A DNA stretch of 64,000 bases from a virus (Duplodnaviria; Caudoviricetes): positions 1 through 64,000 of IMG/VR virus record IMGVR_UViG_3300028370_000004; one strand, written 5' to 3'. The notes under the pieces were generated by a model, which had not been told where the DNA came from, searched no databases, and saw only the letters and a list, made by a program, of their open reading frames with translations. Below are positions 4,377 to 64,000 of the stretch, one piece after another. Each line of letters opens with the position of its first letter. Positions within the stretch are counted from its first letter, which is position 1. The translations under genes were made by a program, and so were the position numbers.

Positions 4377-5477
4377 TCAAAAGCTACTGCTGACAAAGAT
4401 AGGCATCGGCTGCTCATAATCTTCGTCGGGTTCAAGATGAATAAAGGTATTATAAATCGAAGGATCCCAATCTTTGATCACAGTAATCATTCGCAGAGCA
4501 AGCAACGTAGCGCTAACCAAATCGTCGCCGTGTCCTTGCTTTGCTTGAAAACTGGTATTCGACTTTACATAATTTTTTAATTCGGATATAAGCGGTCTGC
4601 TTCGCAACAACAGTTGATCGTTTTCAATCATTGTTTTTAATCTTGCGCAGATGGTCATTTTTGCGCCATGTGTGGTGTTAAATCCTTTACGAAACTTTCT
4701 TACATGACCTTTTCTCATGGGTTCACTGATAAACAATCCTGGTATATTTTCTTCGCCATAATCGTTGATTACAATCAGTGCTGCTTCGCCCAATCCATTG
4801 TTCTCGACGCTCCAGTATATGTTGTCGCCACCGCTCTTGGTTTCGTCAGCAATGTATTGGCAGATATCTTTTAATACACGAACCTGGCCAGGGATTCCGG
4901 TTTCGTTGTGACACCATTCCCCAACTTGTTCATACGTAGGAATTTCATATATTTGTAATGCTGCGTTGTTGCCGCCTGTGCCCATAGCAGGATCTAGTGA
5001 CACCACATAACTGTATTTCGAGCTTGGCTTTTTGAACCAACGAGTATGACCCATATTTAATAGAGGCGCTTCGCCTTCCATTGTAGCAAGTTTGATCGAA
5101 TGTATTAGCGTCTCGTCGAACACAAGGAATTCACAGTTCGAGCTGAGTATTTTGTTTGTATAATATCGGTGGCCGCCATTGACTTCTATAAGATCATAAA
5201 CCGGTTCTGAATAACCTAGATCTATTTTGTTGAGTAATTTTATATCGCCTTCGGTTGTAACCACTGTGTTTCCTATTGCAATGTCCTGGGCTTGTTTTGA
5301 AGTTTCCGGGCCTATGTAAAATTTGTGATCGTGGGTGCATTCAACATATGCGCCTTGTTCAAACTCCATTCGGAGCAACGGTTTTATTCCCATCATGCTA
5401 ACACCGGCAAAGTCTTGAAACCCTTCCGGTGTTAGCACCTTGTACCCCTTGATGTTCTCTTTAAAAGTCTTTGTCAT
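4377..5477 (-). CDS. terL: Terminase large subunit fragment 3: IntC-2 (aa 1-114) plus C-terminal RNase H-like nuclease extein
   Basis: Intein block B (ECTHDHKF) and blocks F/G (VYDLIEV..HRYYTNKILSSN|C); then CEFL, SLDPAMG, VENNGLG, GHGDDLV nuclease motifs. Confidence 0.93.
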   Translation of the reverse strand: MTKTFKENIKGYKVLTPEGFQDFAGVSMMGIKPLLRMEFEQGAYVECTHDHKFYIGPETSKQAQDIAIGNTVVTTEGDIKLLNKIDLGYSEPVYDLIEVNGGHRYYTNKILSSNCEFLVFDETLIHSIKLATMEGEAPLLNMGHTRWFKKPSSKYSYVVSLDPAMGTGGNNAALQIYEIPTYEQVGEWCHNETGIPGQVRVLKDICQYIADETKSGGDNIYWSVENNGLGEAALIVINDYGEENIPGLFISEPMRKGHVRKFRKGFNTTHGAKMTICARLKTMIENDQLLLRSRPLISELKNYVKSNTSFQAKQGHGDDLVSATLLALRMITVIKDWDPSIYNTFIHLEPDEDYEQPMPIFVSSSF

Positions 5478-6488
5478 TTAGTGTCCTATACGAATATTTA
5501 TTCTCAAATATCCAAACTTCGTAGTCATACCCTCTGTCTACAACAGCTTGGCGTTTTTTAAGGTTGTTAACCAATCTATTCTTATACTTTTCCTTGCCAT
5601 GGCCGTTCCACCACCATTGACTCTTGACTCTTGACTCTTGACTTCGATAATTTTATTTTCTTTAGGAATGAAGATATCGGGGTAATATTTTAAGTGATGT
5701 CTATTTTCAGCAACGTACTTAAATACCTCGATAGCGTAGTCTGAATAATCGTCGTGTATAATTATGTCATCTTCGCTGTATTTCAGCTGGTTAAATAATA
5801 TATCCAAAGCAAAAGGTTCATGACCGCGTACACCTACAACCTTGCCGCCTGGCATTGTATAGTCTTTTATTGTACAGTTGCCTTTGTTGATCTTGCTAGC
5901 TGTTGTTCCTGACAATAGTACGTTTTCGACACCGTATCTTTCTAAGTTAGTAGCCCGCCTTTGTTGGTTGCTCTTATTCTTTTCTTCAATAGAACGGTTT
6001 ACTCTACTTAAACTAGCCTGCTTGCTGTTGTTGTATTTTTCGTCGCCATATTTTACTAGCTTGGTCTGTCTTGACTTTTCTTTTTGGCTCTCCAACTTTG
6101 ATCCCCACGCAACTCCGTACTTCTTTTTAAACGTAGCTTGCGCTTTGTTAAGTTGTTTTTCTTTTTGTGCATCTGTTCGCAATGCTGCTGCCTTCTTTTT
6201 GTTAGCGGAATCAATTTGTTTTTTGGTTGCAGTCCACTGTGACTTTGTAGTCGACCCACTTACTCCTACGCACTTAGGATCCCCGCAACTGTTGGCATAA
6301 GTTTCTTTGTGTTGATAAAATGAAAGTTTCTCTCCGCATATACACCTAGGACTTGTTCCAGTTGTATACTTTTCGTAGTAATCTCGATACGTTAAGTTAT
6401 GTGTTTTTAAATGTCGCGTGAATTGACCATTGGTTTTGCAGTATGTCTTATTATCTAATCTTGATTCGACGTAAATTGCGACGCTCAC
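5461..6488 (-). pseudogene. Free-standing PD-(D/E)XK-type endonuclease splitting intein 2; frameshifted by a 14-bp repeat expansion
   Basis: KYG repeats and YYPDIFIPKENKIIEVKS; removing two TTGACTC copies restores ...EVKSQWWWNGHGKEKYKNRLVNNLKKRQAVVDRGYDYEVWIFENK...DF* ending at 5461; GGAG RBS before GTG 6488. Confidence 0.75.
5617..5643. repeat. 7-bp tandem repeat (TTGACTC)x3 + TTGACT
   Basis: Read directly from the sequence. Confidence 0.95.
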
Positions 6489-6518
6489 AGTATTCTCCGT
6501 TAAATCGTTCTTGTGCAA

Positions 6519-7256
6519 TTATTTATTAATGGTGCTAAACAGGTTGCCTATTTCTGAGTCAAATATATTACCGTGTATATCCTGGAGGGTGATGATTGTA
6601 GGTGCGCTCACACAACCATACTCGCGCCTGAATCGTTCTTCGCCAATTCGGCCAACCTCACCTTTTTTCCACTCTTCGTCTCTATCTGGGTGATCGTGCC
6701 ACTCTGAGATAAAACTACGGAATCCATTGATGCCTAATTCTTGTTCAACGCCATATTCGTCAAATCTCTTTTCGGCATCTTTCCAAATAGTAGCAAATGT
6801 ATCTTCATCTGAGTTTGGTGTGCTTGTGATAATTGCGCGTCCACCAGTTGCTAGTGTAGGCGAAATTGATGCCCAAAATTCTTCAGCAATGTTTGGTTGC
6901 ACAAATGCGAATTCATCACATTGATGAGAGTTAATATTATTTGCAATTATTACATGATTTTCTGCATTAAATATTTCATAAGTGTCTTCTAAAACTACAG
7001 ATGTTAGGTCTGCCACAGTTTTAATAGTATTGTGCGAATCTAACCTGTCACCTACAATTATATCATTTACTCTTGTTTCTACACCGTTAATAAAAAACCG
7101 GTGTTCTAACGTTGCAGTAACGAAAGTACCGTCGGTAAATGTTATTTTACAAGATTCTTTATTTGCATTTTCATTTAAGAAAATACCTTCAAATTCTTCC
7201 CACCCGTTAGGAGTTAATATTTCATATTCTGTATTAGGTGCGTATATTTGTTTCAT
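6519..7256 (-). CDS. terL: Terminase large subunit fragment 2: IntC-1 (112 aa) + 102-aa middle extein + IntN-2 (31 aa)
   Basis: VTATLEHRF block B; ...IIANNINSHQ|CDEFAF (Walker B); ITSTPN coupling motif; FRREYG|CVSAPTIITL IntN; AAGGA RBS. Confidence 0.93.
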   Translation of the reverse strand: MKQIYAPNTEYEILTPNGWEEFEGIFLNENANKESCKITFTDGTFVTATLEHRFFINGVETRVNDIIVGDRLDSHNTIKTVADLTSVVLEDTYEIFNAENHVIIANNINSHQCDEFAFVQPNIAEEFWASISPTLATGGRAIITSTPNSDEDTFATIWKDAEKRFDEYGVEQELGINGFRSFISEWHDHPDRDEEWKKGEVGRIGEERFRREYGCVSAPTIITLQDIHGNIFDSEIGNLFSTINK

Positions 7257-8130
7257 TGAATTCCTTTACTAACCTTGCTCCACTAACAGGTGCCGCATGC
7301 TGCATGTCGGTATTAATCATCTTAGCAAATACGTCAAACTCGTACAATGATTTATTAATAGTATAACTAGCGTTAGTTAACAACAAATCTATTGTAATAC
7401 TGCACGCACTGTGCTTTGATATGTTTTCTTTCCACGGAAGCATTTGTAAGTTATGTATACTTCCGATAAGCAACGGACTAACACGGTTTTTGTATCCTTG
7501 CATAATAGAAAATATATGGTCTATATGATGTGCACCTTCAACTCCGGCAAGTCCAGTTTTATAACCCGAGGTTATTGCTAGTCTATGCTGTTCAGTGACA
7601 TACGTTACAACTGACTTATACCGATAAAACTCATTACGCTGCGCCGGATCTAATATAAGACCCTTGGCTGCTTTTGTTGCGTTACCTTTAGTAATTGCAA
7701 GAGTTGCTAATTGCGAATAACCGTTACGGCCGAACTCGTCAACATTGCTCATATGCGTTGCTCTAGTTTTTTGGCCTTTTTTACTATATCCACTAATACC
7801 ATCGGCGTCTAGCTTAGATAGCGTTTGTTGGGCAGCAACTTGCGATGTTTCGTAAGCAGTTAGCCCAGTAGCAGAGTCAACTGTACTAAGTCCTTTTTTG
7901 ATGTTTGCTTTTCGTGCATTGCTAACTCCCCGAACTCCTGGGTGCAGTCTATCGTACTCTGCCACGCTCATATGTAACACTCGCTCAATGTACGATGTCT
8001 TGATCATACTAAGACGTTCGTCACTTACAGGACATAATATATAATCTATGCCCGATTGTAATGACGATTCGTACAAATGCGCGTTACGCTTTTGGTTTCG
8101 TTTCTTAAATGCTTGTATTTTTATATCCAT
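7234..8130 (-). CDS. Free-standing HNH-type endonuclease splitting intein 1
   Basis: HHIDHIFS...HNLQMLPWKENISK; ATG 8130 lies 4 nt after TATAAATA; stop overlaps the start of fragment 2. Confidence 0.75.
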   Translation of the reverse strand: MDIKIQAFKKRNQKRNAHLYESSLQSGIDYILCPVSDERLSMIKTSYIERVLHMSVAEYDRLHPGVRGVSNARKANIKKGLSTVDSATGLTAYETSQVAAQQTLSKLDADGISGYSKKGQKTRATHMSNVDEFGRNGYSQLATLAITKGNATKAAKGLILDPAQRNEFYRYKSVVTYVTEQHRLAITSGYKTGLAGVEGAHHIDHIFSIMQGYKNRVSPLLIGSIHNLQMLPWKENISKHSACSITIDLLLTNASYTINKSLYEFDVFAKMINTDMQHAAPVSGARLVKEFNETNIRT

Positions 8131-8156: not shown

Positions 8157-8798
8157 TCACCCGATAATTCTTTTAGGGTTGTGTGTCCTGATATACAAAT
8201 CTCGAAGAGTTATATCTTCTTCAATAAGTGTATGCTTATTACGAACTCGGACAGTAGTTGTATCGCCATCTAAACAGTATAGTAGCGAGATAGCCAAACC
8301 ACGTCCTGTAGTAGGTGTGGTTGTTTGACTGATAATACGCGAGCCGTTTTCAAATTCAATTGAGCCTTTGTTGTAACTGGTTACTCCGGCTCTAATGTGG
8401 TCAGGACACAATTCGTAAACATACCGGATACGCTGCATAATTTCCTGTGCACCTGTGTATTTGTGTGCTGCAATCAAGATAGTCTGATCCGGCTTGAACA
8501 TTGCAAACCACGCAAGATAGATACTTGCACAAGTTGTCTTACCAGTTTGTCTAGGCATCATATTGATGTTGAATCGATAGTTGTGATACGTGTGCATCAA
8601 TCCTAACTGATAATCATACGGATCATACAACAGCTTTCCCTTAAGGGGATGCTGAATATATGCAAACATCTTAGCAAAGTAAAGATAGCCAACATCAGGA
8701 TCCATGCACCCAACTAGTTGTTCAATTTGTTGTTCAGTGAATGTTTCCTGACGGTTGGCTTTCTTAATTAATACGCCGTCTAAGGTAGATGGTGCCAT
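8157..8798 (-). CDS. terL: Terminase large subunit fragment 1: N-terminal ATPase extein (174 aa) + IntN-1 (39 aa)
   Basis: PYDYQ adenine-binding motif, PRQTGKTT Walker A, FENGS, GRG..SLLY|CLDGDTTTVRV intein block A. Confidence 0.95.
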   Translation of the reverse strand: MAPSTLDGVLIKKANRQETFTEQQIEQLVGCMDPDVGYLYFAKMFAYIQHPLKGKLLYDPYDYQLGLMHTYHNYRFNINMMPRQTGKTTCASIYLAWFAMFKPDQTILIAAHKYTGAQEIMQRIRYVYELCPDHIRAGVTSYNKGSIEFENGSRIISQTTTPTTGRGLAISLLYCLDGDTTTVRVRNKHTLIEEDITLRDLYIRTHNPKRIIG

Positions 8799-53002: not shown

Positions 53003-55897
53003 TTATGACCCAAACGGCGCATTGCCGCCTTGTGTATCTGCAGATGCTCCAGGCGATGCACTTGCGTCACCGGTTGTATCATCTAAGTCTATATCAGAGT
53101 CTGGTCCATCTGCTGCACCCATGTCTGCACTAATATCTGCGCCTGTAATGCCAGCATCTCTCATTTGAGAGCTTGCATCTTGCTCGCCTGTTTCAAACTC
53201 ATCTTCGTTTTCTTCTCTCCAAAGCTTTTCGTTGGTGGCAATTTCTTCCTTGGACAATCCTAAAAATCTCTCTAACGCAAAACGGTTGGCAATAAACGGA
53301 ACAGCTTGCATAGATGAGAAAGTTGAAATTCTATTGCTGTCAAGTTCTGCTTGTCGATAGCTTGCAAAGTTTTGCGGTGGCTGTAATTTCAGATCAAACA
53401 TTGCAACATCGATGTTGATGCCTTTTTGACTTAGATAAAGTTTAAATTCTTTGTTAAACACTTCGGCAACAAGGCTCTGTAGTCGTTCACAATAGTTGTT
53501 GAAGCGTAGCTCTTGAATGTAAGCAGTACCAACACGTCCGTCATTGAATTGGCTTGCACTATCATCGGCACCGGTTGGAAGGTACGAACTGGGAATACGA
53601 AGACCGCGTAACAATTTGTTGGTAAAGTATCTTAAGTCGTCAATCTCTCCAAGGTTGGTACCGCCCGGAAGTGTTTCAACTTTTGATCCTCTACCTTCAC
53701 TGTTGTGAACATATATTCCAGCTGCTAGTCCAAACCAATGGCTGTTACTGTCACTTAAAACAGTAATATCTCCAGTGTCCATAGTTTCAGTTAACCATTC
53801 AATAGCCGCAACTTTGTGATTTTGTTTGTTAGAGAACTTACTATGCTGACCAGTATAATCTTTTTTCCAATCGCCAAATGTTCTATATCCTACTACTCCT
53901 ACAATCTTGTTAAGAGTAGTATCAGTAACCTGTAAGTTGCTGCTTTTATTTTTGTCTCTCTTTAAATTTGTATTTGCATCTTTGAATGATTGTTGAAATT
54001 CCTCGTTATTTTGAAGATGCACTGATAACTTAGAAATACTATCATTGCCAGTATCAAATGCTTCCTTCATTTTATTAAACATGTTTATTGAGAAGTTTAT
54101 TGTCTTAGCAGCTGAGTTTTTGTTTCTTGATAATTGTAATGACTTGTAAACAGACTGTCTTGATTCTCTTGAAATTTTAGACCATCCAGCTAACGCATTT
54201 TTTTGATTGCGCTTACTGATTTTTTCCATAAAGCAACTATCCGAATTGGCATACAAGTTCTTCATTCCGTCTAATAACTTTTGTCGAGATTCTGGATTAC
54301 TCCACTGCTTATTAATGCTGTATGAACCTGCATTCCTATGTAATTCAATATGATCCGCAGTTAACAGTACTTGTAAATTAGTCGGATTATTGTTTTTGCT
54401 GTTAAAGTCAACATGGTGAACTTGAGTATCTTTTCCCGGCTGCTTGTTTGCCACAGTAGCATGAACAAACTTAATACTTCCTTCGTTGTTACTACGGTAC
54501 CTTGTGTATTTTTTATTTTTTTGTTTTGGACCAGAATATCCATCGCGCAATTCTAGCGGCATTAAGCTGTCATTGATTAAAAGATGCTGAGCTTCTACTT
54601 CTCTACCGTCGCGCATAATGAACCTATGATCAGGCGTAGAGGTGATGGTTTCACCGTTGTCCAGTGTTATCTTTAAAACTTTAGCATTTTTACGAGTGAT
54701 ACCAGCCCACTTGATTTCAGCTGATTCCATTTCATGAGTAATGTTGCTCAACCCATAAGTCCAATTACGCTTGCCATTTTTATATTCTAAAATTATTTCA
54801 TCTAACGTTAGCGTCCTTCCGTCTAATAACGGTATTGGTGTTTCTAATGAAAGGCAGGTCTGGGGGAAGAAATAATCCTCATTGATAGACAACGGATTGT
54901 ATGAACTATCAATAACAGTTTGACCTCCGCCTGTCTTCGATGGAATTCGTCTTTGGTGAATTTCTGTTTTTACTCTTTCCACAAACTGCATAGCAAGGTG
55001 ACTTGGCATGTTGCCAACGTCTACATAAAATACTCTGCGCTCTGGCGCACGCTGAACGCGGTAGATGATGATTGCATCCTCTAGTAATTCTTTTTGCTTG
55101 TAAACTTTGAAGATGCTTTCCAGCAAACTGTTGCCAAACGGATAGTTTTGATCCATTCCTTCGCTAAGAGACATGTGTATAACATGTTCTGCATCAACTG
55201 CTGTCTCGTTCGATTCGTTTGAGAATCTACTTGTGTTCAAATCTGGTGTACTTCCGGGTGCGCCTCCGCCGCTGCCCATAGACGGTCCGCCCATGCCTCC
55301 TGCGCCGTTTGGTCCGTATGCATTAGTGGTGTTTAGCTTGGTCGCCGACAAGCTTTCAAATGATATGTTTATATCCTTAACCATGTATTGCTCTGGACGC
55401 TTGCCTTCACTTTCGTTTACAATAATTTTACTCAAGTTAGCAGGATCAACATGGAACCACTTTTTGGTTTCAGGGTCTCTTAGGAAAAATTGGTCACCAT
55501 ACTTGAAAATATTTCTAATAATTCTAAACATACGAGTTTCAAATTCTTGTAATTTTGCCCACCGGTGAAGATACTGACTTAGAATTTGCACTTCGCTGTT
55601 AGTAGGCGCGCCATTGTATTCAATTTTAAATGGTGTGTTGTTTTCTTTGTTCTTTTGAGTGCAAAACTCAGCAAGGATGTCCAATGCTGCATTTATTTCA
55701 GAATCACTGTCCATGGTGTTGTATTGTCCGTAGCGTTCAACACGGTTTGGATTGCCAACATAAACGTCTGGAAGATGTGAACTATAATTAGAGGCAGCAG
55801 GACCGAGCCCTTGTCCTTTTGAGAAACTAAAAGGACTATAGCTGCCTCCCTGATTCATGCTTGTCGGAACAGGCGAGAAGTATTTTTTCCACGACAT
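53003..55897 (-). CDS. Portal protein (gp20-like) with a 385-aa intein
   Basis: LEDAIIIYRVQRAPERRVFYVDVGNMP; EDYFFPQT|intein|SEGRGSKVETLPGG. Confidence 0.96.
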   Translation of the reverse strand: MSWKKYFSPVPTSMNQGGSYSPFSFSKGQGLGPAASNYSSHLPDVYVGNPNRVERYGQYNTMDSDSEINAALDILAEFCTQKNKENNTPFKIEYNGAPTNSEVQILSQYLHRWAKLQEFETRMFRIIRNIFKYGDQFFLRDPETKKWFHVDPANLSKIIVNESEGKRPEQYMVKDINISFESLSATKLNTTNAYGPNGAGGMGGPSMGSGGGAPGSTPDLNTSRFSNESNETAVDAEHVIHMSLSEGMDQNYPFGNSLLESIFKVYKQKELLEDAIIIYRVQRAPERRVFYVDVGNMPSHLAMQFVERVKTEIHQRRIPSKTGGGQTVIDSSYNPLSINEDYFFPQTCLSLETPIPLLDGRTLTLDEIILEYKNGKRNWTYGLSNITHEMESAEIKWAGITRKNAKVLKITLDNGETITSTPDHRFIMRDGREVEAQHLLINDSLMPLELRDGYSGPKQKNKKYTRYRSNNEGSIKFVHATVANKQPGKDTQVHHVDFNSKNNNPTNLQVLLTADHIELHRNAGSYSINKQWSNPESRQKLLDGMKNLYANSDSCFMEKISKRNQKNALAGWSKISRESRQSVYKSLQLSRNKNSAAKTINFSINMFNKMKEAFDTGNDSISKLSVHLQNNEEFQQSFKDANTNLKRDKNKSSNLQVTDTTLNKIVGVVGYRTFGDWKKDYTGQHSKFSNKQNHKVAAIEWLTETMDTGDITVLSDSNSHWFGLAAGIYVHNSEGRGSKVETLPGGTNLGEIDDLRYFTNKLLRGLRIPSSYLPTGADDSASQFNDGRVGTAYIQELRFNNYCERLQSLVAEVFNKEFKLYLSQKGINIDVAMFDLKLQPPQNFASYRQAELDSNRISTFSSMQAVPFIANRFALERFLGLSKEEIATNEKLWREENEDEFETGEQDASSQMRDAGITGADISADMGAADGPDSDIDLDDTTGDASASPGASADTQGGNAPFGS
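53702..54856 (-). mobile_element. Contiguous intein with HNH endonuclease domain in the portal
   Basis: CLSLETPI start; TSTPDHRF block B; VHHVDFNSKNNNPTNL (HNH); GIYVHN|S end. Confidence 0.93.
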
Positions 55898-61803: not shown

Positions 61804-63804
61804 TTACACAACACTGCTAATTTCAAGATCGTTACTAAAGGTTGTAAAGCCGTTTTCTTTAATCACCTTTAATAAGTGGTTAACTCTACCAATTAGCTCA
61901 TCTTTGTGAGATATTAAAAATATATTCTTATTTCTTTCTCTTCCCATCTTCTTTAGGATAGCAAGAGAATTTTCAACTCCGGCTGTGTCCATTCCGCTGT
62001 CAATAAGTTCGTCTATGAACAGTAAATTAACACCTTGGTACAACGATTCCCATACATCGCGGAATGCAAAGCTCAATCCTAGGATCAATCTGTTGCGTTC
62101 TCCTCTTGACAAGTTGTCAAAGTCCAAATCTTGGCCTAGTTGTGTGATTTCTACAGATAAATCATTTTGAAATTGTACCTGATGTGGTAATCCTAGCTTG
62201 TCAAGGTATGAAGTTAGCCTGCTGTTGAGGTAAGCAAGGTTTTGATCAATGATCTTCTTGCGAATAAAACTGTCCTTGTTGGTTAACAGCTTGAGAAGGA
62301 ACTCTTGGTGCTCTTTTAGCAATGTAAGTGTGTTTACTTCATCCCAACTCACATCTTGCAATGCAGTTTCGGTTAAATCGTCAATTTGCTGCTGGTAAGG
62401 GTCTTCGTCATCGAGTTTGGTTTGCAGAGCATTGGTTAGTGAGTCGACATTATTTCGATGCTCATAGGCTTCTTTGGCATTTTCATAATAAGTCTTTGGT
62501 CTGCCGTTGATATCGCCAATGTTTTCAAGTGCTGTTAGTACTGTACCGAGTTTACGAGCAACTTCGCTCTGGTATGTAGTAGCATCCTCTAGTTCTTTGT
62601 TCCGTTTAGCTGTAATCTCTGCTTTTTTGTCTGCATGAAGTTCTTGTCCGCATGTGTAACACGTTGCATTGTCTAACCCGGATATATCATTAACAAGTGT
62701 ACTCACACCTTTGTCAGCCCGTAACATAGCAGAGTCCAGTGTTGACTTTTCCTTGTTGAGTGCTGTTATTTCGTTGTTGTGCTTGGTCCAGTTGGCAAGC
62801 AAATCGTGAGCTTCTAGCTCTTTGTCAATGTCTAGACGCTCGAGTTCTGTAATTGCTGACTGAAACTTTACAATATCCTGCTTTGTCTTGGTGTTCCATG
62901 CATTCCGTCGAGTCTTTAGTGTGTTAATACTCTGGCCAATCTTCTCATTGCTTGTTTGAATGGAACTGATCTTAAGAGTTTCTTCGGTAATAGACTCTTT
63001 TGTTCGCTTTACCTTCTCTTTGAGTACTTCGGCCTTCTCGGAAAGCAAGGTAATACCTAATAGCTGTTCGATGATCTCTCTTTGATCATTGGTTCTCATA
63101 CTAAGGAACGGTTCGGAGTAGGTGTTTAGAGCTACAATATGCTTGAACATGTTGTGGGTCATTCCTAGTAATGTACCAATTGCCTTTTGTGTTTCTCTGC
63201 TGTCGCCTTGACTTTCGTCGGTAGTAGCGTCAACTTGTTCAATATCGTTTACATAAAATTTGAGTACATTAGGAGATCTTCCACGCTCGATGCGATAAGT
63301 TAGTCCTCCCTTTTCAAAGTTTAGTGTAACCAACATACCTTTGCGGTTGGTCTTGTTGATCAAGTTGTTCCGTTTGATGTTAGTAAGCGCTTGTCCGTAA
63401 AGCGCATACGACAATGCGTTGATGATAGTGGTATTATGCGAAAGTATGTTGTTTGAATAAAATCTGTGATCATTGCTATCTACTGTTACGTCAAACATAT
63501 TCTCGCAAAGGTCGGTTTTGATAAGTTTTACAACTAGATCAGGACCGTGCTTTGTTATTATTTTTGTTTTGTTTTTGATAATATCTTTAACAAAAATTTC
63601 ATCGAAGCTTTGGTCGAACACAATATGAGTATCAGCACATTCTAGAATTAATCCAGAATCAGTCTCTAGTTTCCACACTGTATATGGAACAGTTTTGTGA
63701 ATAGTAGTTACAGGATGCCACCCGCTATCTGTTTCAATTTCCAAGTTGGATAGATCCAGGCTATCAATAAACTTTCTTTCTATTGTGTTAGAAATTGTAT
63801 GCAT
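61804..63804 (-). CDS. gp46/SbcC/Rad50-like recombination ATPase, C-terminal fragment starting with a 124-aa IntC
   Basis: LECADTHIV block B; MFDVTV..HRFYSNNILSHN|TTIINAL; zinc hook CYTC; LSRGE; LFIDE. Confidence 0.92.
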   Translation of the reverse strand: MHTISNTIERKFIDSLDLSNLEIETDSGWHPVTTIHKTVPYTVWKLETDSGLILECADTHIVFDQSFDEIFVKDIIKNKTKIITKHGPDLVVKLIKTDLCENMFDVTVDSNDHRFYSNNILSHNTTIINALSYALYGQALTNIKRNNLINKTNRKGMLVTLNFEKGGLTYRIERGRSPNVLKFYVNDIEQVDATTDESQGDSRETQKAIGTLLGMTHNMFKHIVALNTYSEPFLSMRTNDQREIIEQLLGITLLSEKAEVLKEKVKRTKESITEETLKISSIQTSNEKIGQSINTLKTRRNAWNTKTKQDIVKFQSAITELERLDIDKELEAHDLLANWTKHNNEITALNKEKSTLDSAMLRADKGVSTLVNDISGLDNATCYTCGQELHADKKAEITAKRNKELEDATTYQSEVARKLGTVLTALENIGDINGRPKTYYENAKEAYEHRNNVDSLTNALQTKLDDEDPYQQQIDDLTETALQDVSWDEVNTLTLLKEHQEFLLKLLTNKDSFIRKKIIDQNLAYLNSRLTSYLDKLGLPHQVQFQNDLSVEITQLGQDLDFDNLSRGERNRLILGLSFAFRDVWESLYQGVNLLFIDELIDSGMDTAGVENSLAILKKMGRERNKNIFLISHKDELIGRVNHLLKVIKENGFTTFSNDLEISSVV

Positions 63805-64000
63805 TTCTCTAATACTTCCTCTTTATTTCTTTTAAAATCACTTTCCCAGACAACTAAAACTTCGTATCCTTGATCTTCGGCAAATTTAATTTTTTGTTCG
63901 TCTAACTTCCATTTTTCAGAAGCTATCAGTTTAGTTCTAGGATTTATATAATCTGCAGAATATTTTTTAGGATTACAGTGCCAAAAGTCTCCGTTGTATT
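63780..64000 (-). CDS. 3' end of a Vsr/DUF559-like endonuclease splitting the gp46 intein (partial)
   Basis: Manual translation YNGDFWHCNPKKY...DEQKIKFAEDQGYEVLVVWESDFKRNKEEVLEKCIQFLTQ*; stop overlaps the IntC start. Confidence 0.8.
   Translation of the reverse strand, partial: YNGDFWHCNPKKYSADYINPRTKLIASEKWKLDEQKIKFAEDQGYEVLVVWESDFKRNKEEVLEKCIQFLTQ

What the first reader, a model, noticed from the sequence alone, without database searches (positions are those of the whole stretch)
6519..7256. The middle fragment demands orthogonal inteins, or it would cyclise or be skipped
Seen: fragment 2 has IntC-1 at its N-terminus and IntN-2 at its C-terminus, the IntC-extein-IntN order used artificially for protein cyclisation. 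Both +1 residues are Cys. Inference: cross-reaction of IntN-2 with IntC-1 would circularise the 102-aa Walker B segment, and IntN-1 with IntC-2 would skip it and give a dead terminase. Selection should therefore have made the pairs mutually orthogonal, and also orthogonal to the gp46 IntC. That would be a natural toolkit for three-fragment ligation with synthesisable 31-39 aa IntN tags. Leaky cross-splicing could instead be regulatory.
Basis: inference. Interest (0 to 1): 0.85.

Follow-up and report, generated by a model that had tools for sequence, protein, structure and literature searches.

The report
Three-piece terminase, two split inteins
This gene encodes only the middle third of a giant phage's DNA-packaging motor, with the back half of one self-splicing element in front and the front half of a different one behind. 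Three proteins must therefore be stitched in the right order; the layout is real and common in uncultured phages, but that the two elements ignore each other remains an untested inference.

Summary
Observation confirmed exactly. ORF 6519-7256 (-) is IntC-1 (112 aa, ends SHQ), then a 102-aa TerL extein (Walker B CDEFAF through REYG), then IntN-2 (31 aa, CVSAPT...). It sits between E1+IntN-1 (8157-8798) and IntC-2+nuclease (4377-5477). A free-standing homing-endonuclease gene lies in each gap.

In 110 uninterrupted relatives the TerL reads SLLYCDEFAF and FRREYGCEFLVF, which are the predicted spliced junctions. Catalytic residues are invariant across 92 middle fragments.

The layout is not rare. 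About 100 distinct middle fragments exist in metagenomes, relatives have four-piece TerLs, and the cultured Salicola phage SCTP-2 has a three-piece TerL. This scan had already found the layout in at least 10 other genomes.

Intein 2 belongs to the known AceL/GOS-TerL (Cat) family of atypically split inteins. Intein 1 is a different, Gln-ended lineage inserted at Walker B.

The orthogonality reading is logical and fits the data. The two inteins share 26-28% identity, their profile scores separate cleanly, and their lineages at the two sites assort freely. Singly occupied relatives carry about 80-85% identical IntN halves, so any orthogonality looks inherited from old divergence rather than evolved in place. 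It cannot be decided in silico: short-IntN split inteins are the kind reported to cross-react. This is a new variant of a known kind, of moderate interest.

The parts
8157..8798 (-). TerL fragment 1. N-extein E1 is 174 aa with Walker A (MMPRQTGKTT) and ends SLLY. It is fused to IntN-1 (39 aa, 8160-8276, CLDGDTTTVRVRNK...).
   Evidence: Pfam Terminase_6N E 5.8e-9. phrog_5989 covers residues 11-209, including IntN-1. IntN-1 is highly conserved in 22 distinct relatives.
7234..8130 (-). Free-standing homing-endonuclease gene 1 (HNH / endonuclease VII-like) between the halves of intein 1. The ATG is 26 nt after the fragment 1 stop, and the 3' end overlaps the fragment 2 start by 23 nt.
   Evidence: phrog_5104 E 3e-18; phrog_1035 endonuclease VII E 9e-4; HHIDH...N...N...H motif. 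A homologous gene stands before the IntC-1 gene of phage SCTP-2.
6921..7256 (-). IntC-1, 112 aa. It holds blocks B (TLEH), F and G, ends His-Gln, and lacks block A.
   Evidence: T49 and H52 invariant in 92 sequences; pLDDT 81-94, all-beta; Foldseek best hit 6dsl_B.
6615..6920 (-). Middle extein E2, 102 aa. +1 Cys, Walker B Asp-Glu (CDEFAF), motif ITSTPN, ends RREYG.
   Evidence: C113, D114, E115 invariant. 61% identical to the same stretch of the uninterrupted TerL of Pseudomonas phage PA5oct.
6522..6614 (-). IntN-2, 31 aa (CVSAPTIITLQDIHGNIFDSEIGNLFSTINK). Stop codon at 6519-6521.
   Evidence: Cys215 invariant. The length is 28-41 aa in most of about 100 relatives, median 31.
5538..6518 (-). 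Free-standing homing-endonuclease gene 2, between the halves of intein 2. By eye the C-terminus has a PD-(D/E)xK-like D...EVK motif.
   Evidence: PF24308 DUF7487 E 8.5e-29; phrog_3339 'homing endonuclease' E 2e-7.
4377..5477 (-). TerL fragment 3. IntC-2 (114 aa, 5136-5477, block B THDH, ends Ser-Asn) is fused to C-extein E3 (252 aa, starts CEFLVF, RNaseH-like nuclease).
   Evidence: Terminase_6C; 6dsl_B CatC E 1.4e-11, alignment runs into the CE of the extein; T48, H51, N114, C115 invariant.
61807..63822 (-). Third atypically split intein of the same genome. IntC-3 (124 aa, 63433-63804, ends SHN) is fused to the C-part of gp46/Rad50-like ATPase starting TTIINAL. Its Vsr-like endonuclease gene (63783-64898) and the N-fragment with IntN-3 (37 aa, 64858-65130) run past the window end.
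   Evidence: 25-30% identity to inteins 1 and 2; IntN-3 scores 19.7 bits on the IntN-2 profile, the closest non-cognate.

Best explanation
The ORF is the middle piece of a large-terminase gene that two independent mobile elements have fractured into three genes. Each element is an atypically split intein, with a short IntN carrying only block A and a long IntC carrying blocks B, F and G. Each has a free-standing homing-endonuclease gene between its halves. Intein 1 sits in Walker B (LLY|CDEF) and ends in Gln. Intein 2 sits at REYG|CEFL and belongs to the AceL/GOS-TerL (Cat) family.

After translation, IntN-1 docks on IntC-1 and IntN-2 on IntC-2. Two class-1 trans-splicing reactions then join E1, E2 and E3 into a 528-aa TerL. 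The IntC-extein-IntN order of the middle piece is an automatic by-product of double occupancy.

Productive assembly requires that non-cognate pairing (cyclisation of E2, or skipping of E2) stays minor. The most likely reason it does is that the two inteins are old, separate, site-bound lineages with different IntN length, spacing and charge. On this view orthogonality was inherited when the second element invaded, not evolved in place.

Shown: the anatomy, the junctions, conservation of the catalytic residues, and the prevalence. Inferred: that splicing happens, and that cross-reaction is low.
For: Anatomy and exact junctions:
- Searches give the anatomy. One search shows 110 uninterrupted relatives reading SLLYCDEFAF and FRREYGCEFLVF.
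- Splicing residues are invariant. In 92 middle fragments these are T49, H52, C113 and C215; in 11 C-fragments they are T48, H51, N114 and C115.
- Only one Terminase_6N gene lies in the 151 kb held.

The layout persists and works:
- About 100 distinct ~245-aa middle fragments at 43-78% identity were found, some on contigs up to 356 kb.
- The cultured phage SCTP-2 encodes TerL as three dispersed genes, including an IntC-extein-IntN piece.
- L032 and L089 have four-piece TerLs.

Independent invasions:
- Among 161 related loci all occupancy states occur: both sites empty 110, only site 1 split 21, only site 2 split 11, both split 8. Contiguous mini-intein alleles also occur at either site.
- IntN halves of singly occupied relatives are about 80-85% identical by eye to the window's.

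Separate lineages:
- IntC-1 and IntC-2 share 28% identity, IntN-1 and IntN-2 share 26%, and the pairs need gaps to align. Within six doubly or triply split genomes IntC pairs share 26-37% and IntN pairs 20-32%.
- The IntN-1 profile scores 64-89 bits on IntN-1 sequences but -2 to 13 on IntN-2. The IntN-2 profile scores 23-84 on its own family but 2-17 on IntN-1.
- The two site-1 classes (ending HQ, or TKN) both occur with both site-2 IntN classes: 27, 15, 26 and 9.
- IntC-1 is strongly acidic (-11). IntN-1 has 7 basic residues, while IntN-2 is nearly uncharged (net -2).

Family placement: IntC-2 hits CatC 6dsl_B at E 1.4e-11. Gln-ended inteins are known to splice (PMC4031507).
Against: There is no experimental or expression evidence for splicing, or for lack of cross-splicing, in this phage.

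Low overall identity does not guarantee orthogonality for this type of split. An atypical IntC spliced with short IntN peptides of two other inteins that were only 40-50% identical (PMC3443213). In a 24 x 24 matrix most crosstalk involved inteins split at atypical sites with one short piece (PMC7090010). GOS-TerL and AceL-TerL IntN are interchangeable (PMC11766414).

The start of IntC, just after the split site, is similar by eye in all these inteins: YEILTPNGWEEFEGI in IntC-1, YKVLTPEGFQDFAGV in IntC-2 and IKVLTPSGFKSFSGI in Cat.

The genome record is only about 43% complete, so a second intact TerL elsewhere cannot be excluded. Free assortment of lineages shows tolerance, not zero cross-reaction.
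Confidence: 0.7

Rival explanations
1. The pairs are only partly orthogonal. A measurable share of fragment 2 is cyclised or skipped, and the phage tolerates it because few terminase molecules are needed, or uses it to throttle TerL supply.
For: Cross-reaction is documented precisely for atypically split inteins with short IntN. The region of IntC next to the split site looks conserved by eye between inteins 1 and 2. Cyclisation would be intramolecular, so even weak affinity could count (inference). The Gln end of intein 1 may slow its last step, which would leave time for side reactions.
Against: IntN-1 and IntN-2 differ in length, spacing and charge, and their profiles do not cross-score. 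The layout has persisted in about 100 diverged lineages, and in four-piece form where losses would multiply. No feature points to regulation.
Confidence: 0.2
2. Correct assembly is ensured mainly by something other than intein-intein recognition. Candidates are extein context at each junction, order of synthesis from one transcript, or folding of the ATPase domain bringing the right ends together. On this view the inteins themselves could be promiscuous.
For: All five ORFs lie on one strand with no terminator-like site between them. The -1 to -3 and +2 to +3 residues differ between the sites (LLY|CDE against EYG|CEF). Cat-type inteins are reported to read N-extein residues.
Against: In the cultured phage SCTP-2 the three TerL genes lie about 40 and 170 kb apart on both strands, so co-transcription is not needed. 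Extein residues usually tune rate rather than partner choice (general knowledge of inteins).
Confidence: 0.07
3. The pieces are not spliced. The gene is a decaying relic, or the fragments assemble non-covalently and another intact TerL does the work.
For: The record is about 43% complete. Split genes that assemble without splicing exist in phages (nrdA of Aeromonas phage Aeh1, PMC3045599; seen only in the result list, paper not read).
Against: All catalytic intein residues and all TerL motifs are invariant across about 100 homologues. No second Terminase_6N lies in the 151 kb. A search of the cultured phage SCTP-2 with fragment 1 found the TerL N-part only in pieces.
Confidence: 0.03

Closest known systems
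AceL-TerL, GOS-TerL and their consensus Cat intein (atypically split TerL inteins; PDB 6DSL; Dassa 2009 PMC2677866; review PMC11766414)
   Same: Host protein is TerL. IntN is short (25-37 aa) with block A only, and IntC is long (104-122 aa) with blocks B, F and G. The C-extein starts CE. IntC-2 matches CatC at E 1.4e-11, and the fold of IntC-1 has CatC as its best PDB match.
   Different: The described cases are single split inteins making a two-piece TerL. Here a second, unrelated atypically split intein sits in Walker B of the same gene. It is only weakly similar to Cat (E 0.009), ends in Gln, and creates a middle fragment with non-cognate halves at its two ends.
Fractured genes (Dassa et al. 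2009, PMC2677866)
   Same: Same-strand order of N-part+IntN, a short spacer (26 nt here; 27-51 in the paper), a free-standing endonuclease gene, then IntC+C-part. The paper includes one terminase locus with the unusual split point.
   Different: In the paper each locus is fractured in two, with only a hint of a further intein in DnaE-1. Its endonucleases are GIY-YIG or Vsr-like. Here the gene is fractured twice, and the endonucleases are HNH-like and DUF7487-type. The Vsr-like type appears at gp46.
Engineered three-fragment ligation with two orthogonal split inteins, and one-pot multi-fragment assembly (Pinto et al. 2020, PMC7090010)
   Same: A middle block carries IntC of one pair and IntN of another, and success depends on orthogonality.
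   Different: Those are designed constructs with experimentally chosen pairs, mostly split at the canonical site. Here the arrangement is natural, both inteins are split at the same atypical site, and orthogonality is unmeasured.
SICLOPPS-type split-intein cyclisation constructs
   Same: The IntC-target-IntN order in one polypeptide.
   Different: Cyclisation constructs use the two halves of one intein. Here the halves belong to inteins that share 26-28% identity, so cyclisation is the unwanted side reaction.
TerL genes of Salicola phage SCTP-2 (MF360958.1; gp534, gp267, gp224)
   Same: A cultured relative with TerL in three genes. One is IntC-extein-IntN. It has a Gln-ended IntC at the same Walker B site (VSQ|CDEFAF) and a homologous HNH gene in front of it.
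   Different: The occupied sites are Walker A and Walker B, not Walker B and REYG|CEF. The genes are dispersed over about 210 kb. The tail after E1b is about 104 aa rather than 39. E2 also carries a contiguous intein.

Membership tests
Class 1 intein (HINT splicing domain), split form | Cys/Ser at intein position 1 and Cys/Ser/Thr at +1 of the C-extein | tested here: met
   IntN-1 and IntN-2 start with Cys and both C-exteins start with Cys. C113 and C215 are invariant in 92 sequences and C115 in 11.
Class 1 intein (HINT splicing domain), split form | Block B Thr-x-x-His and a C-terminal Asn (or Gln/Asp) able to cyclise | tested here: met
   IntC-1 has TLEH and ends His-Gln. IntC-2 has THDH and ends Ser-Asn. 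T and H are invariant. Gln ends are known to splice (PMC4031507). Gln is the commonest end in this lineage: HQ 57, TKN 39, HN 4.
Class 1 intein (HINT splicing domain), split form | HINT fold | tested here: met
   The AF2 model of the ORF gives residues 1-112 as all-beta with pLDDT 81-94. The 48 Foldseek matches at E <= 0.001 that are listed are HINT domains, nearly all inteins, with 6dsl_B best at E 9e-7.
Class 1 intein (HINT splicing domain), split form | Actual trans-splicing activity | not testable with these tools
   Needs co-expression and detection of the ligated product.
AceL/GOS-TerL (Cat) atypically split intein family | Split between blocks A and B: IntN of about 25-37 aa, IntC over 100 aa | tested here: met
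   IntN-1 is 39 aa with IntC-1 112 aa; IntN-2 is 31 aa with IntC-2 114 aa.
AceL/GOS-TerL (Cat) atypically split intein family | Sequence relatedness to the family and the same TerL insertion point (C-extein CE...) | tested here: met
   Met for intein 2: CatC E 1.4e-11, with the alignment running through ...N/A-C-E. Not met for intein 1: E 0.009, a different site (Walker B, Q|CDEF) and 28% identity to IntC-2. Intein 1 is a sister lineage, not an allele.
Fractured gene (Dassa 2009) | N-part+IntN, short spacer, free-standing endonuclease gene, IntC+C-part, all on one strand | tested here: met
   Present twice in tandem. The endonuclease families differ from those in the paper.
Mutually orthogonal split-intein pairs | Non-cognate IntN x IntC combinations give negligible splicing (for example below 0.2 of cognate, as in PMC7090010) | not testable with these tools
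   Only indirect data: 26-28% identity, no profile cross-scoring, free assortment of lineages. Structure prediction gave no usable verdict (see Tried and rejected).
SICLOPPS-like cyclisation construct | IntC and IntN of the same intein flank the target | tested here: not met
   IntC-1's cognate IntN is on fragment 1. The IntN at the C-terminus belongs to intein 2.

The most novel reading that the evidence does not exclude
This clade of T4-related jumbo phages holds a natural library of atypically split inteins that have been field-tested for mutual orthogonality inside single proteins. The library includes a P-loop lineage shared by TerL site 0 and gp46, two Walker B classes ending HQ or TKN, and at least two REYG|CEF classes. 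That would allow one-pot ordered ligation of three or four fragments with IntN tags short enough for peptide synthesis. The slow Gln end of intein 1 might also impose an order on the two reactions.
Probability: 0.45. Interest if true: 0.65.

Novelty: new variant of a known kind. Interest (0 to 1): 0.5.

Why it matters
Split inteins with short IntN are valued for semisynthesis and labelling, but they are also the ones most prone to crosstalk. Only a few natural examples (AceL-TerL, GOS-TerL, VidaL) have been characterised.

A natural protein that must be built from three pieces, or four in relatives, by two or three such inteins is an evolutionary screen for pairs that work side by side. It offers dozens of ready candidate pairs, and paired alignments from which specificity residues could be learnt.

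Biologically, it shows how far an essential phage gene can be fragmented by homing elements and still function. That includes dispersal of the pieces across a 440-kb genome in a cultured phage.

I found no paper describing a natural three- or four-piece trans-spliced protein in the searched library. That library is incomplete, and this scan has already reported the layout from other genomes.

Tried and rejected
1. Complex prediction was set up as a competition: IntN-2 plus 12 extein residues as partner against IntC-1 and IntC-2 together. The verdict was 'no answer'. The score was 0.38, and a control in which the cognate IntC-2 was replaced by an unrelated protein scored 0.69. The tool states this is neither support nor evidence against, and no contacts are given. 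It does not decide which IntC the peptide prefers, and I draw nothing from it.

2. AF2 of the whole middle fragment gave the IntN-2 tail as beta-beta-alpha at pLDDT 75-90, with the start of the extein (113-139) below 50. To see whether that confidence came from docking on IntC-1 in cis, I folded E2+IntN-2 alone (11-sequence alignment). The tail was still beta-beta-alpha at pLDDT 65-81, but the extein collapsed to below 50. Alignment depth therefore confounds the comparison. No coordinates are returned, so the result is inconclusive.

I could not fetch the loci of the roughly 100 metagenomic middle fragments, so IntN-1 and IntC-2 families rest on 22 and 12 distinct IMG/VR sequences, and no paired covariation analysis was possible.

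4. Searches of PDB sequences with IntN-1 or IntN-2 alone found nothing. The peptides are too short.

5. megablast of the locus against cultured phages gave no match.

6. The promoter and terminator scan showed nothing above chance.

7. Rejected idea: that the pairs were reshaped by selection after meeting. Singly occupied relatives carry IntN halves about 80-85% identical by eye to the window's.

8. Rejected idea: that the ORF is a natural cyclisation device. Its two halves are non-cognate.

Full report
**What is there**

The window is the first 64 kb of a 151-kb IMG/VR virus record that CheckV rates about 43% complete, which fits a jumbo phage. Its closest cultured TerL relatives are jumbo phages: PA5oct, Atu_ph07, Phosso and SCTP-2.

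Five ORFs lie head to tail on the minus strand:
- 8157-8798: TerL N-part (174 aa, Walker A, ends SLLY) plus IntN-1 (39 aa).
- 7234-8130: an HNH-like endonuclease gene.
- 6519-7256: the finding. IntC-1 (112 aa, ends SHQ), extein E2 (102 aa, CDEFAF...RREYG), IntN-2 (31 aa).
- 5538-6518: a DUF7487 / phrog_3339 'homing endonuclease' gene.
- 4377-5477: IntC-2 (114 aa, ends SSN) plus the nuclease part starting CEFLVF.

Pfam and PHROGs place the three exteins on consecutive stretches of one TerL profile.

**The junctions are exact**

Among 161 related IMG/VR loci, 110 have an uninterrupted TerL. It reads ...SLLYCDEFAFV... and ...FRREYGCEFLVFDE..., which is what the window's exteins give when joined, a 528-aa protein. 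Both +1 Cys residues are native TerL residues. Some empty alleles have Ala at the first site.

**The inteins look alive**

In an alignment of 92 middle fragments the invariant columns include block B Thr49 and His52, the +1 Cys113, Walker B Asp114 and Glu115, and Cys215, the first residue of IntN-2. In 11 C-fragments Thr48, His51, Asn114 and Cys115 are invariant.

AF2 folds residues 1-112 as an all-beta domain at pLDDT 81-94. Its best PDB match is the C-fragment of the Cat intein, 6dsl_B.

Intein 1 ends in Gln. Such inteins splice, sometimes slowly (PMC4031507). Gln is the commonest ending in this lineage: HQ 57, TKN 39, HN 4 of 100.

**Relation to known inteins**

IntC-2 matches CatC at E 1.4e-11, and the alignment runs into the C-extein 'CE'. 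Intein 2 is therefore a member of the AceL-TerL / GOS-TerL family of atypically split terminase inteins, first seen by Dassa et al. 2009 (PMC2677866) and later engineered.

IntC-1 is only weakly similar to Cat (E 0.009), 28% identical to IntC-2, and inserted in Walker B. It is a separate lineage with the same unusual split point. Each half-locus has the 'fractured gene' layout of Dassa et al., so the gene is fractured twice.

**How common**

The 5.8-billion-protein search returned 856 hits. About 100 of the best 120 clusters are ~245-aa IntC-E2-IntN proteins, 43-78% identical to the window's, on contigs up to 356 kb.

The related loci show every occupancy state:
- both sites empty: 110
- only site 1 split: 21
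- only site 2 split: 11
- both split: 8
- contiguous mini-intein alleles at site 1 (L009, L028) and at site 2 (L020)
- split alleles that have lost the endonuclease gene (L021, L030, L035, L036)

L032 and L089 carry a third atypically split intein at Walker A (GK|T). Their TerL is in four ORFs, with two IntC-extein-IntN pieces.

The cultured Salicola phage SCTP-2 annotates three 'terminase large subunit' genes at about 216, 256 and 429 kb:
- gp534 is E1a plus an IntN.
- gp267 is IntC-E1b-CLDGETT... tail.
- gp224 begins with a Gln-ended IntC before CDEFAF.

A viable phage therefore lives with this design. This scan had already reported three- and four-piece terminases in at least 10 other genomes, with the same conclusion that orthogonality cannot be settled from sequence.

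**The orthogonality question**

Data that fit orthogonality:
- In the window the three co-resident atypical inteins (TerL-1, TerL-2, gp46) are 25-28% identical in IntC and 26-30% in IntN. IntN-1 needs gaps to align with IntN-2. In five other doubly or triply split genomes the values are 26-37% and 20-32%.
- Family profiles do not cross-score. The IntN-1 HMM gives 64-89 bits on IntN-1 and -2 to 13 on IntN-2. The IntN-2 HMM gives 23-84 on its own family and 2-17 on IntN-1.
- Charge differs. IntC-1 is -11 and IntN-1 carries seven basic residues, whereas IntN-2 is nearly uncharged.
- Both site-1 classes occur with both main site-2 IntN classes (27, 15, 26, 9). No particular combination seems forbidden.

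Data that caution:
- This is exactly the class of split intein for which cross-reaction is documented.
- The stretch of IntC that follows the split site looks alike by eye in inteins 1, 2 and Cat.
- IntN-3 of gp46 scores 19.7 bits on the IntN-2 profile, close to the weakest true member at 23.2. The riskiest non-cognate pair may be intein 2 with the gp46 intein, not intein 1 with intein 2.

**Selected or inherited?**

The IntN halves of singly occupied relatives are about 80-85% identical by eye to the window's. L010 has only site 1 occupied and L037 only site 2. IntN-1 is strikingly conserved across both IntC-1 classes.

This favours independent invasion by already diverged, site-bound lineages, with incompatible combinations simply not surviving. 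It does not favour re-tuning after co-residence.

**What could not be decided**

Structure prediction gave no usable answer (see Tried and rejected). No tool can show splicing.

**Verdict**

The components are known and the tandem natural arrangement is, as far as I could search, undescribed. It is a new variant of a known kind, of moderate interest, mainly as a source of candidate orthogonal short-IntN inteins.

Noticed in passing
window 61807-64000, continuing to G000:C1:65130: gp46/Rad50-like ATPase is fractured in its P-loop (GK|TT) by a third atypically split intein: IntN 37 aa, IntC 124 aa, +1 Thr, with a Vsr-like endonuclease gene between the halves. Its IntC is 41-51% identical to the TerL Walker A ('site 0') intein of relatives L089, L032 and SCTP-2. 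One intein lineage therefore seems to occupy the P-loops of two different ATPases.
   Followed up: partly
window 53003-55897 (-): The portal (gp20-like) gene carries a contiguous intein with an HNH-type insert, from ...FPQT|CLSLETP... to ...IYVHN|SEG.... PF14890 scores 41.6 bits.
   Followed up: no
G000:C1:150118-151107 (-), outside the window: A DNA-polymerase-like ORF at the contig end begins with the C-terminal end of another intein (...NNILIHN|SVYF). The contig end cuts it, so split or contiguous cannot be told.
   Followed up: no
L032:358-5435 and L089:2800-7836: TerL lies in four ORFs with three atypically split inteins, at Walker A, Walker B and REYG|CEF. Two of the ORFs are IntC-extein-IntN pieces. 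In L035, L026, L092 and L100 the Walker A site instead holds a contiguous intein of about 330 aa.
   Followed up: partly
L017-L019, L034, L090 (end of the fragment 1 ORF): The IntN-1 reading frame runs on into a short duplicated remnant of the C-extein (...DEFAFV, ...DDEFGFVDK) before the stop. This looks like a footprint of endonuclease-gene insertion into a once contiguous intein or target.
   Followed up: no
L011:331-1113, L012:2644-3426, L031:1639-2244, L033:2117-3019, L037:2730-3473: A second, diverged partial copy of the TerL ATPase domain (33-42% identical to E1 and E2) lies directly upstream of the real TerL. In L033 the copy forms a near-duplicate IntC-E1b ORF fused to an E2-like stretch.
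   Followed up: no
MF360958.1 (Salicola phage SCTP-2): 215993-218077, 256428-257321, 429356-429748: A cultured 440-kb phage has its TerL in three genes scattered over about 210 kb on both strands, plus a contiguous intein inside E2 (TIS|CLAPGT...LGSN|TGG). After E1b, gp267 carries a tail of about 104 aa rather than a 39-aa IntN. The papers I searched do not mention any of this.
   Followed up: partly
alignments of IntN-1 (22 sequences) and IntN-2 (99 sequences): IntN-1 is almost invariant (CLDG[DE]T..V.[IV]RNK.TL.EED.TL..LY), even across the two very different IntC-1 classes ending HQ or TKN. IntN-2 keeps little beyond Cys1, one Gly and a hydrophobic pattern. The reason for the asymmetry is unknown. 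One possibility is a DNA-level constraint from the neighbouring endonuclease's target.
   Followed up: no
L009:719-1213, L028, L020:2034-2432: Contiguous mini-intein alleles exist at site 1 (165 and 159 aa) and at site 2 (132 aa). They have a short linker where the split alleles carry the endonuclease gene. They would be useful for tracing how the atypical split arose.
   Followed up: no
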